Shown piece by piece: positions 30,686-42,077 of a DNA stretch of 64,000 bases (position 1 is its first letter; each line of letters opens with the position of its first letter). Made by a program: the position numbers and the translations under genes. The notes under the pieces are model-generated. The model did not search any database. It had not been told where the DNA came from and was given only the letters and a program-made list of their open reading frames with translations. The DNA comes from Amphiscolops sp. MND2022 (lineage: Eukaryota): the NCBI GenBank assembly GCA_964187785.1, contig OZ076409.1:11596001-11660000 (forward strand). Reading direction: 5' to 3'.

Positions 30686-32276
30686 TGTCGCAGGCGGCCA
30701 CCTGCGACGGCAACTAATATCAAATACTAGTGGACGGAGATAACACCAACCCACCGCCAGGTGTTTTGCCAATTTAGAACATATCAGACTTATGGTCCAT
30801 TTAGCCACACCCAAAACTAATGTTAGTACGGAAAACTTGGTTAATATTATGTTTTAGTTGATTAATATTTCATTTTGTGCCTGATTGGAATTGTTGCTAA
30901 TTGTTTTGTAATTTGCAGTGTAAAATTGATAACAGCTGTAAAAATGCAATTAATTTGCTAGCAATCGGTACAAGGAAACGTGTTCAAATACTTATTTGGT
31001 CTCGCTCAGCGTACACTCGGTCCAAATAGTATTAACCAATCACAGTGCTTCATTTGTGCTATACTTGTGCTTATTTTACTGCCGCCGCATAGACTTTCAG
31101 TCCAAAGCGGAATTAATCACGTGACCTAACCATGTACTGCAATTTGAGCGCTGTTGATGAAGCCAAATAGACTTGTAGTACAATTTATTAGAATGTTACT
31201 ATTATCCATTCATGTAGTGTTGCTGTTTAGTTAGAAGCATGTAAATAGTATATTTAAAGTTAGAGAAATTTCACCATACCAATATTAGTAAACTGTTAGT
31301 CTGATTCAATCTCGCTTAGCCGCTTCCCTTTGATGCTATTTTTATCATATAATCATGATGAAATGATGACGTAATGTCTCTAGACTTGCCTTAAAACCCC
31401 ATAAAGTGCTATTTTTAGAAGCATGACACGCATAATTTTGCGTGTCACCCTGACCAAACTATAAATAGCAGGGACACTGAGGTGCGGGGACAATTCTTTG
31501 AAAACGAGATACAATTCAGTTGATGCTACTCTAGTGATACGTGATATTTGATATTACCTTTGTTGACGTTCAGACGATTAGAATTACTTTGAACATTGAA
31601 ACATACAATTGACTTTGAAACCACACAACCTTTTCAATGCCTTCGACAAGGAAGCAAAATGCTAAAGAAAGACGCTCTAGACAGTTAGACATCATGTCTG
31701 ATGTTGCAAATGTAGATGTCATGTTAGGAAGTTATTCTGGTAATATTGAAGGAAATGATCACAGTGAGAATGAATTGAATTTGGACTCAGAGTCCGGTAG
31801 GCTACAGAGAAACTCTAATGTAACTGGAGAAGATTTTAGATCACTACTCACAAACAGTAGAGAAAACAGTGAAATTACCATAGAAACAACTAGATTGATC
31901 AATGATGAAATTTCTAGTCAATTGAGTAGGAATCTCAATGAGATCAAAACAAGCCTGAATTCTCAGATACAAAACGCAATTTTGGCTGCAACTACTAATA
32001 CAGTGCTTCCTTCTATTCAAAATACCCTCAATATGCAGGGGGAGCCCAATTTTACCATTGTGGACCCAAGGTCCAATGAGCCACATCAAGGTTTAAAAGC
32101 AGCCAGCTCAGCCAGCAAGGACCTAAGGTCTAGTGAGCGACAACGGAACCCCGGAGCTGAAATAACACAGGAAACCTGGGGAAAACGTTCTAAAACGTCC
32201 CCAGTAGAAGGAGATCATAGACACATGTCTAGAGATAGTTCAGTAGATTCGTATAATAGTGAACAAAACCACGACA
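30686..32276 (+). repeat. 5' LTR (1591 bp)
   Basis: Near-identical to 40546-42077; TG...CA ends. Confidence 0.95.
31423..31467 (+). promoter_or_regulatory. Putative LTR promoter: inverted repeat plus TATA box
   Basis: TGACACGCA-TAATTT-TGCGTGTCA followed by TATAAATA at 31460, ~177 nt upstream of the ATG at 31637. Confidence 0.55.
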
Positions 32277-32288
32277 TGGTGACAGGAG
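32277..32288 (+). promoter_or_regulatory. Primer-binding site, tRNA-Leu-like
   Basis: TGGTGACAGGAG directly after the LTR CA; 11/12 match to the tRNA-Leu(CAG) 3' complement TGGTGTCAGGAG (from recall). Confidence 0.55.
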
Positions 32289-33330
32289 CCAACCCTACCC
32301 CACATATAGTTCCCGAGTTTCTCACTGGACGTCCCATGCAATCCCGAGAACCCCTGCAACACCAAAATTCCTACAACAATGAGTCTCAGGATTTGGGCCC
32401 CCAAGTCCCTGAGACTCACAAATCAACTACTCCTTCTGATCCCATTAATCGTCTAGCTGAAGTGTTGGTTGGTATGAACAATCGTTGATCAGCCCAAACA
32501 CTGATGGTACGCCCAGTCAGCACGACTACACTGACATTCGACGGCAAATCAGAGAAATTCGAACTCTTCGAAGATCTCTTCCACACAATGATCAAAATGC
32601 AACCTGATATGACTGAGACAATGAAAATAAATCATTTTCATTCATTGTTACGAAAGAATGCGCTACAAACCTTCCGTAACATCAACACGGCAAACAGACA
32701 AACCTTGGAAGATATTCTGGCAGTATTTCGTCGGAAATATGTTAAACCTGAGTCCCAGGATTTTCTCGAGGAACTCAATCAAGGAGCTGAAAAAGCGTTT
32801 GGCGAGAATGCTCAGGCCATGATCGATAGTCTTCTATAGGCCAAATTGCCACCGAAATTGAAACGTTCAGTCAATATGGCTAGATTAGAAAACGCAACAT
32901 TTGAGGAAATAGTTACTCATCTGGAACGAGAACTAGAACTAAACGGACTTGAGGAAGGTGACGACATTCCCGTCCCAACAATGTCAACAGCCCTTACAGC
33001 AACACGACCGGGAACTGGCCTTCTTTCTTCGGGAATAGACCCAAACATTACTTGCAACTATTGCAAAAAACCTGGCCATGTCAAAGATGACTGCCGAAAA
33101 CTCAAACGAAAGGAGGAACAACACCGCAATGACGGGCAGGATACCAAAAAAGAATATCCCAAATGTCCAACTTGCGACAAAACAAATCACCCGACGGAAC
33201 AATGTTGGAAAGGCGCCGGAGCCCACCTCAAGCCCAAAAACCTCAAACTAGACGATTCCAAAACTAACGAAACCCCTACCAATACTAGTGACGTTCCAAA
33301 CAAACAAACAACTTCTATATTAAAAATTCC

Positions 33331-33337
33331 AAAAAAC
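33331..33337 (+). promoter_or_regulatory. -1 ribosomal frameshift slippery heptamer A AAA AAC
   Basis: CCA AAA AAC TAG ends gag. The -1 frame continues (KLDLPRLQ..., two stops in this copy) into the frame of ORF 33718 upstream of the protease. Confidence 0.7.
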
Positions 33338-39245: not shown

Positions 39246-39818
39246 TTAACTAAAATACAATAGATGCGACCAGATATACTTTGCCTTTCATGTCTGGAAC
39301 CTGCCAGTGACATTCATGAAATTTACTTTGTTTCAATTCATTTCATTTCATCATACTCACTTTATTATTTGGCCATATTTCATTTTGCCAATCATTTAAT
39401 TATCACCATAATTATTCATGGCTTCTTATTGGTTACTTCAGCGGTGACGCTCAGCGGACCACCGGTCTTTGATGATCTCAATGTTTACTTGTTGTTATGA
39501 ATGAATAACACTTTCATTCACCATTACATCTTAATGAAGTGTTAGACAAATAAACTGAGGGCTACTTGAAAGCGAATTAACTAAAGGCGACTTCCATTCA
39601 GGGAAGGAGCTAGAATAAGTCTTTCTTAAAATGGAAAAGTTTATGATGAATTTAGGAAAATGCGCGAAAATTTCCCCCCTCCTAATTTTTTCCCGCGACC
39701 CTGAGGATTTGGGGTCGACCAGACGAGAACAATTCATTCAATCAAACCTTGTTAGAGCGATACAGTTGTTTCATATCTTCTCGAGATTGCTAAGAAAATA
39801 CTCTTACAAAGATTCAAT

Positions 39819-40637
39819 ATGGAAATGAATTTGCAGTTCAACTTGGAGGCACTAACTACACCGGCAATAAGTCCTAGTTATTTTTCCTCGGATGAGGATA
39901 TGGACGTTGATATAGAATCCGTTGACGCAACCGGTGAACCGTCAGGTGATAGTGACATCGAGGTCATTGCTTGCTACCGACATGTCCCGGTCCCCGAACA
40001 AGGATCAGTAGCGGGACGACAGATGACAACTGAACTGTCAGATTGTACGGACAGCGAGTTCCCACCTTTTCCTTGGGACGACTTCGAAGACATGCTGAGA
40101 ATGACTGAGGATCAAGTGGACCCGCTAGACAGAGGAGCTGGTCCTAGTGGCGCCGCTCAGACCGGAAGTCCCCCGAATAAACATTGTGGAAGTCTCACAC
40201 CCTTAGTAGATACTCCTCTCTCGCCCCCACCACACGAACGCCGTCCGACTTATGGTCCGTGTGGCGATAACTTGCCCCCGCTGCTTGATCAACCACTACC
40301 ACTGAGTTCACATTTACAAGGGATCAGCGTAAGAATGGCCTCCCATTGTGGACAGCCTAATACAGCGACATATGGAGATTGCATAGTGTGTGGACGAAGC
40401 TATGAGCAGATAAAAGAAACTGCAGTTTTAGATTATCTTGAGAATACTACTAATCTGCACGAAACTTATGGCGAACGATTGAAAAGGAGAGCAGCCTACT
40501 TAGCAGGAATGGACCAAGGCACTGTACTTTTCGTCCCTAGGGGAGTGTCGCAGGCGGCCGCCTGCGACGGCAACTATTATCAAATACAAGTGGACGGAGA
40601 TAACACCAACCCGCCGCCAGGTGTTTTGCCAATTTAG
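39819..40637 (+). CDS. Uninterrupted accessory ORF (272 aa), not env-like, overlapping the PPT and 3' LTR
   Basis: ATG start and no internal stops. Acidic N-terminus, Pro-rich middle, HC...CIVC motif. The last ~30 codons lie inside the LTR (from 40546). No signal peptide or TM segment visible. Confidence 0.75.
   Translation: MEMNLQFNLEALTTPAISPSYFSSDEDMDVDIESVDATGEPSGDSDIEVIACYRHVPVPEQGSVAGRQMTTELSDCTDSEFPPFPWDDFEDMLRMTEDQVDPLDRGAGPSGAAQTGSPPNKHCGSLTPLVDTPLSPPPHERRPTYGPCGDNLPPLLDQPLPLSSHLQGISVRMASHCGQPNTATYGDCIVCGRSYEQIKETAVLDYLENTTNLHETYGERLKRRAAYLAGMDQGTVLFVPRGVSQAAACDGNYYQIQVDGDNTNPPPGVLPI
40539..40545 (+). promoter_or_regulatory. Polypurine tract
   Basis: AGGGGAG directly before TGTCG of the 3' LTR. 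Confidence 0.7.
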
Positions 40638-42077
40638 AACATATTAGACTTATGGTCTATTTAGCCACACCCAAAAACTAATGTTAGTACGGAAAACTTG
40701 GTTAATATTATGTTTTAGTTGATTAATATTTCATTTTGTGCCTGATTGCAACTGTTGCTAATTGTTTTGTAATTGGCAGTGTAAAATTGATAACAGCTGT
40801 AAAATGCAATTAATTGGCTAGCAATCGGTACAAGGAAACGTGTTCAAATACTTATTTGGTCTCGCTCAGCGTACACTCGGTCCAAATAGTATTAACCAAT
40901 CACAGTGCTTCATTTGTGCTATACTTGTGCTTATTTTACTGCCGCCGCATAGACTTTCAGTCCAAAGCGGAATTAATCCCCTGACCTAACCATGTACTGC
41001 AATTTGAGCGCTGTTGATGAAGTCAAATAGACTTGTAGTACAATTTATTAGAATGCTACTATTATCCATTCACGTAGTGTTGCTGTTTAGTTAGAAGCAT
41101 GTAAATAGCATATTTAAAGTTAGAGAAATTTCACAATACCAATATTTGTAAACTGTTAGTCTGATTCAATCTCGCTTAGCCGCTTCCCTTTGATGCTATT
41201 TTTATCATATAATCATGATGAAATGATGACGTAATGTCTCTAGACTTGCCTTAAAACCCCATAAAGTGCTATTTTTAGAAGCATGACACGCATAATTTTG
41301 CGTGTCACCCTGAGCAAACAGTTGATGCTACTCTAGTGATACGTGATATTTGATATTACCTTTGTTGACGTTCAGACGATTAGAATTACTTTGAACATTG
41401 AAACATACAATTGACTTTGAAACCACACAACCTTTTCAATGCCTTCGACAAGGAAGCAAAATGCTAAAGAAAGACGCTCTAGACAGTTAGACATCATGTC
41501 TGATGTTGAAAATGTAGATGTCATGTTAGGAAGTTATTCTGGTAATATTGAAGAAATGATCACAGTGAGAATGAATTGAATTTGGACTCAGAGTCCGGTA
41601 GGCTACAGAGAAACTCTAATGTAACTGGAGAAGATTTTAGATCACTACTCACAAACAGTAGAGAAAACAGTGAAATTACCATAGAAACAACTAGATTGAT
41701 CAATGATGAAATTTCTAGTCAATTGAGTAGGAATCTCAATGAGATCAAAACAAGCCTGAATTCTCAGATACAAAACGCAATTTTGGCTGCAACTACTAAT
41801 ACAGTGCTTCCTTCTATTCAAAATACCCTCAATATGCAGGGGGAGCCCAATTTTACCATTGTGGACCCAAGGTCCAATGAGCCACATCAAGGTTTAAAAG
41901 CAGCCAGCTCAGCCAGCAAGGACCTAAGGTCTAGTGAGCGACAACGGAACCCCGGAGCTGAAATAACACAGGAAACCTGGGGAAAACGTTCTAAAACGTC
42001 CCCAGTAGAAGGAGATCATAGACACATGTCTAGAGATAGTTCAGTAGATTCGTATAATAGTGAACAAAACCACGACA
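40546..42077 (+). repeat. 3' LTR (1532 bp; lacks 58 bp including the TATA box)
   Basis: Matches 30686-32276 except for absence of the 31460-31517 equivalent at ~41319 and scattered point changes. Confidence 0.95.

What the first reader, a model, noticed from the sequence alone, without database searches (positions are those of the whole stretch)
30686..42077. Gypsy with complex-retrovirus-like layout: coding LTRs at both ends plus sense and antisense accessory ORFs
Seen: the 1.6-kb LTR is coding at both ends (C-terminus of the accessory ORF at its start, 213 codons of the Gag frame at its end). Between pol and the 3' LTR lie a divergent pair of unknown ORFs, both stop-free although gag and pol are damaged. 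Established: typical Gypsy elements have non-coding LTRs and at most an env-like third ORF. Inference: a lineage with its own regulatory or anti-silencing genes. I cannot confirm novelty without a search.
Basis: partly seen in the sequence, partly recalled or inferred. Interest (0 to 1): 0.8.

Follow-up and report, generated by a model that had tools for sequence, protein, structure and literature searches.

The report
Gypsy retrotransposon carrying spliced antisense gene
This is a damaged copy of a very abundant Gypsy retrotransposon lineage whose full copies carry, backwards and with four conserved introns, a large extra gene that likely descends from a DNA-transposon enzyme and likely regulates the element, plus a second extra gene and a capsid gene that both overlap the terminal repeats.

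Summary
The layout is real, but the window copy misleads. It is a decayed Gypsy element (30686-42077, 5-bp target duplication) lacking about 4.26 kb that sister copies carry. The 'antisense ORF' is only the tail of the last exon of a five-exon antisense gene (about 1,350 codons). GT/AG sites are kept in 36-39 of 39 copies, and two copies lack intron 4 exactly at the predicted junction. The order integrase, antisense gene, sense ORF, LTR recurs in 40 of 40 diverged copies examined; exon-5 searches gave about 5,000-7,500 candidates in this genome. All exons, the sense ORF and both LTR-coded parts are under purifying selection. The antisense protein has a BED-like C2H2 finger. Two separate exon models each rank Hermes (hAT) transposase in the top 3 of 48,161 structures, but at weak Z, and sequence profiles give no support, so a catalytically dead hAT origin is likely (about 0.75), not shown. 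The sense ORF is not env-like and may start at a non-AUG codon. Gag starts 213 codons inside the LTR and reads through a tRNA-Leu primer site. Function is untested; the closest precedent is plant Retand/Grande antisense genes.

The parts
30681..30685 (+). 5' target-site duplication CCATG (repeated at 42078-42082)
30686..32277 (+). 5' LTR, 1,592 nt; first ~92 nt encode the ORF-D C-terminus, last 641 nt the Gag N-terminus; TATA-like box near 31461
31637..33340 (+). gag, ATG inside the LTR, reading through the PBS; 2 stops in this copy; one open frame of 557-613 codons in 6 sister copies
32278..32289 (+). primer-binding site, 12 nt complementary to the 3' end of tRNA-Leu(CAG) plus CCA, inside the gag frame
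33331..33340 (+). slippery heptamer AAAAAAC followed by the gag stop; predicted -1 frameshift into pol; found in 19 of 20 sister 5' halves
33298..38366 (+). pol: protease, degenerate dUTPase-like segment (Pfam E 0.014, under cut-off), RT, RNase H, integrase; 5 stops and 1 frameshift in this copy
38550..39245 (-). remnant (last ~231 codons) of exon 5 of the five-exon antisense gene
39243..39246 (.). junction of the ~4.26-kb deletion that removed antisense exons 1-4, the start of exon 5 and part of the spacer
39756..40637 (+). sense accessory ORF-D; conserved Ile-Ala-Lys-Lys starts at ATT 39786 (possible non-AUG start), first Met 39819; CxxC and ACDG motifs; no transmembrane stretch; ends inside the 3' LTR
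40539..40545 (+). short polypurine tract inside ORF-D
40546..42077 (+). 3' LTR, 1,532 nt; lacks 58 nt including the TATA-like box

Best explanation
The window holds a dead, internally deleted copy of a Gypsy LTR-retrotransposon lineage whose ~15.6-kb full copies carry gag-pol, a conserved five-exon antisense gene and a conserved sense ORF; the antisense gene likely derives from a hAT transposase that lost catalysis and likely acts as a nuclear DNA-binding regulator that helps the element be transcribed. Shown: order of parts, splice-site and exon-length conservation, exact loss of one intron in two copies, purifying selection, a C2H2 finger with a basic patch. Inferred: (1) genomic RNA starts at the LTR promoter, Gag starts in U5, reads through the tRNA-Leu primer site and frameshifts -1 into Pol; (2) the ~1.1-kb spacer holds divergent internal promoters; (3) the antisense RNA is spliced four times into a ~1,350-aa protein, and the introns survive retrotransposition because the packaged sense RNA reads them backwards; (4) the protein binds element DNA through its BED-like finger, oligomerises on the old transposase scaffold and promotes expression or shields the element from silencing; (5) ORF-D is made from a short sense RNA ending in the 3' LTR, probably from an AUU/AUA start.
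Confidence: 0.5

Rival explanations
1. Same anatomy and hAT origin, but the antisense protein works at integration: it tethers or protects the cDNA-integrase complex or steers it to target sites.
For: A transposase scaffold with a finger suits binding element ends; conserved with pol in every copy examined.
Against: It is made from a separate antisense transcript and not fused to Pol; the 500-residue acidic, poorly conserved N-terminus looks more like a regulatory region (inference).
Confidence: 0.18
2. The antisense unit is a self-limiting module: its protein represses the LTR, or its RNA feeds antisense silencing, capping copy number.
For: An antisense transcript converges on pol; transposase-derived repressors exist (recalled).
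Against: Protein-level purifying selection on all five exons excludes an RNA-only role; thousands of candidates in the genome show no evident cap.
Confidence: 0.14
3. The antisense gene is functional but not hAT-derived: a captured host gene or an unrecognised family with a C2H2 finger.
For: All sequence-profile tests were negative; Pfam hits only a weak ZN292-like finger.
Against: Hermes is in the top 3 of 48,161 for two separate exons, in the expected order; exon 2 has the predicted three strands, helix, strand, helix order of an RNase H fold.
Confidence: 0.15
4. The antisense gene is a passenger DNA transposon nested in the retroelement and still working as a transposase.
For: The host genome has many ordinary hAT transposases.
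Against: 40 of 40 diverged exon-5 hits lie beside a Gypsy integrase at the same place; the strand that would carry the second Asp reads CLGC/CSGC and no Glu follows the last aligned helix (inferred, Hermes numbering recalled).
Confidence: 0.03

Closest known systems
Plant Retand/Grande/RIRE2 Gypsy elements (PMC11963269: abstract, background, methods start and term passages read; PMC7264820: first third read)
   Same: Long pol-to-3'LTR region with a conserved antisense accessory gene; predicted DNA binding; Grande's protein is nuclear and has its own promoter (title of a cited paper).
   Different: Their domain is TRP28 (PF04195), which did not match here. 'Intron' does not occur in PMC11963269. 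PMC7264820 states that aORFs lack similarity to other transposons. A second sense ORF, coding LTR ends and gag starting in the LTR are not described in the parts read.
Planarian Burro/GYPSM1 giant Gypsy elements (PMC6431247, passages read)
   Same: Abundant Gypsy lineage with accessory functions and a dUTPase-like segment between protease and RT.
   Different: Extras sit in one sense polyprotein including env; the words antisense and opposite do not occur in that review.
Complex retroviruses (HTLV-1 HBZ per PMC11963269; HIV nef, MMTV sag recalled)
   Same: Antisense regulator; accessory ORF running into U3; AAAAAAC frameshift site.
   Different: No env or transmembrane protein here; antisense gene is internal, with four introns and about 1,350 codons.
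hAT transposases and domesticated derivatives (Hermes; DAYSLEEPER, PMC3499209 search listing only; ZBED/CGGBP1 recalled)
   Same: Finger, then RNase H-like part, then helical insertion domain, in that order (weak structural ranks).
   Different: Carried by a retrotransposon, not by a DNA transposon or the host; catalytic triad not recognisable; no significant sequence similarity.
Yeast Ty1 (recalled; search gave no paper that I read)
   Same: GAG begins inside the LTR and the primer site lies in the ORF.
   Different: Copia type, only a few codons in the LTR against 213 here, no accessory genes.

Membership tests
Ty3/Gypsy LTR retrotransposon | Direct LTRs TG...CA with 4-6 bp target duplication, PBS and PPT | tested here: met
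Ty3/Gypsy LTR retrotransposon | pol order PR-RT-RH-INT with Gypsy-type RT/INT | tested here: met
   RVT_1, RT_RNaseH, Integrase_H2C2, rve; foamy, caulimovirus-like and Ty3 RTs
Named Gypsy clade (GyDB/Repbase) | RT phylogeny against reference clades | not testable with these tools
   no reference set held
env-bearing Gypsy (errantivirus-like) | third ORF with a transmembrane segment | tested here: not met
   0 of 27 ORF-D copies reach a 19-residue hydropathy of 1.8 (maximum 1.37)
Retand lineage | antisense ORF with TRP28 (PF04195) | tested here: not met
   no PF04195 match
hAT transposase family (antisense protein) | N-terminal BED-type finger | tested here: inconclusive
   C2H2 finger in 51 of 53; Atlas BED/hAT-derived neighbours 0.87-0.92; no zf-BED Pfam match
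hAT transposase family (antisense protein) | RNase H-like core with helical insertion domain | tested here: inconclusive
hAT transposase family (antisense protein) | DDE catalytic triad | tested here: inconclusive
   by eye an E/D at the first strand, none at the second or third position; alignment not significant
hAT transposase family (antisense protein) | C-terminal dimerisation domain PF05699 | tested here: not met
   0 of 84 exon-5 proteins match
hAT DNA transposon | free element with terminal inverted repeats and 8-bp duplication | not tested
   40 of 40 diverged hits sit inside Gypsy elements; no genome-wide search for free copies

The most novel reading that the evidence does not exclude
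A class I element has domesticated a class II enzyme: a whole Gypsy lineage, with thousands of copies and many families, carries an intron-containing, antisense, catalytically dead hAT transposase as its own regulator, together with a non-AUG accessory gene and a Gag whose first 213 residues are LTR-encoded.
Probability: 0.6. Interest if true: 0.85.

Novelty: new variant of a known kind. Interest (0 to 1): 0.74.

Why it matters
LTR retrotransposons are expected to shed introns, and the origin and role of their antisense accessory genes are open questions (PMC7264820). Here a four-intron gene has been kept for long enough to diverge to about 45% protein identity within one genome, with a natural intron loss that marks the splice product. 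If the hAT origin holds, one transposon class has co-opted another's enzyme. The lineage is a large genome component and gives a direct test of how retrotransposons regulate themselves or escape silencing.

Full report
Observation. The element spans 30686-42077. Both LTRs begin TGTCG and end CGACA, and CCATG flanks both ends. The LTRs differ at 20 of 1,531 aligned columns; the 3' LTR lacks 58 nt that include the TATA-like box. Pfam finds a weak gag/capsid signal, a zinc knuckle, RT, RNase H and integrase in Gypsy order, with a weak dUTPase-like segment before RT. A 12-nt primer site follows the 5' LTR and matches the 3' end of a sequence with 964 hits in the genome, one of five fetched being called tRNA-Leu(CAG). 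Gag starts at 31637, 213 codons before the LTR end. In six sister copies one frame of 557-613 codons runs from inside the LTR through the primer site. A slippery heptamer precedes the gag stop in 19 of 20 sister 5' halves.

The window copy is deleted. A search of the own genome with 38370-40545 gave 42 matches; only the window's own is continuous, and the others cover either side of position 874/875. In 19 of 20 fetched sisters the pol end and the sense ORF lie about 4.2 kb further apart; the twentieth (L041) is rearranged and was dropped from later counts. The deletion measures 4,209-4,263 bp against four sisters, with CT microhomology. Full copies are thus about 15.6 kb.

The antisense gene. 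The missing DNA holds antisense frames of about 765 and 160-230 codons and the start of a 388-codon frame. Alignment of 39 copies shows five exons. GT or AG is present in 38, 37, 37, 38, 39, 38, 36 and 37 of 39 copies at the eight sites, against 1-33 (mostly about 10) for other intronic GT/AG. Internal exons measure 486 nt (30 of 39), 135 nt (38 of 39) and 82 nt (39 of 39), while introns vary (105-162, 64-74, 65-76, 65-211 nt) and are 24-38% identical among 12 family representatives against 57-63% for exons. Phases join without a shift, for about 1,350 codons. Two of 20 further copies (L178, L188) lack intron 4 and read straight through with the predicted Tyr. An exact intron loss most simply reflects recombination with cDNA of a spliced antisense RNA (inference). 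No RNA run was listed, so splicing today is not observed.

Lineage-wide layout. Exon-5 searches of this genome gave 7,417, 6,990, 7,559 and 4,919 first-look candidates, of which 105-116 were scored each time; these are not copy numbers. I fetched 40 diverged hits, chosen for diversity and few stops. All 40 have integrase on the opposite strand before exon 5, the upstream exons and finger, and ORF-D; the LTR Gag start was in reach in 19 of 20 and 18 of 20. Exon 5 of these is down to 44% identical to the window family. Median dN/dS among pairs 80-93% identical is 0.29 (exon-1 N-terminus), 0.14 (finger), 0.17, 0.17, 0.13, 0.10 (exons 2-5), 0.19 (ORF-D), 0.09 (ORF-D in the LTR plus 10 codons), 0.19 (Gag in the LTR), 0.11 (rest of Gag) and 0.02 (RT); pairs are not independent. 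The representative library holds 645 exon-5 relatives, unnamed where checked; two tested are 31% and 46% identical to their best own-genome match, so the gene probably exists in other species, context unknown.

ORF-D. It has no Pfam family, no transmembrane stretch (0 of 27), a CxxC (26 of 27) and an ACDG motif in the LTR-coded tail (24 of 27). Conservation starts upstream of the first Met at Ile-Ala-Lys-Lys, found in 47 of 60 sequences; the Ile codon is ATT 40, ATA 6, ATC 1, ATG 0 times, follows CAAA in 24, has an in-frame ATG upstream in only 3, and an initiator-like CAGT within 70 nt in 44. A non-AUG start from an internal promoter is the simplest reading (about 0.6), untested.

Mechanism. 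See Best explanation. The anatomy is shown; transcription units, localisation and function are inferred. The window copy cannot make the antisense protein and would pass a TATA-less U3 to any progeny.

Comparison and verdict. Antisense accessory genes between pol and the 3' LTR are known from plant Retand/Grande and fungal Boty (PMC11963269, PMC7264820; parts read listed under Closest known systems); PMC13547354 (term passages only) treats accessory TE proteins as host-interacting factors. Six targeted searches showed no Gypsy with a multi-intron antisense gene, a transposase-like origin and both LTR ends coding, within open-access text. It is a member of Ty3/Gypsy, not of Retand or env-bearing clades; the clade is unplaced. 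New variant of a known kind; interest 0.74.

Noticed in passing
window 30686-32277 against 40546-42077: 19 of the 20 LTR substitutions lie in the first ~770 columns and only 1 in the Gag-coding half; suggests gene conversion or a chimeric origin, and makes LTR dating unreliable.
   Followed up: no
L031-L050: Modules are swapped between subfamilies: copies 94-97% identical in ORF-D carry antisense genes only 65-77% identical, pointing to frequent recombination in the spacer.
   Followed up: partly
window 4795-5243 and 12811-13262, inverted partner 18192-19344: A 98-99% direct-repeat pair about 8 kb apart with an inverted diverged copy; probably another mobile element.
   Followed up: no
window 57382-58179 (+) and 49098-49769 (-): ORFs with weak PHD-finger or RING-like Pfam hits under cut-off, probably LINE ORF1-like pieces (reading recalled).
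   Followed up: no
G000:C8:35587000-35637000: Tandem array of tRNA-Leu-like units about 296 bp apart; 964 pattern matches in the genome.
   Followed up: no
L184:8400-10000: A second copy of antisense exons 1-5 (start) follows ORF-D, a tandem or nested rearrangement.
   Followed up: no
window 34340-34595: Degenerate dUTPase-like segment between protease and RT (Pfam E 0.014), as noted for Burro in PMC6431247.
   Followed up: no
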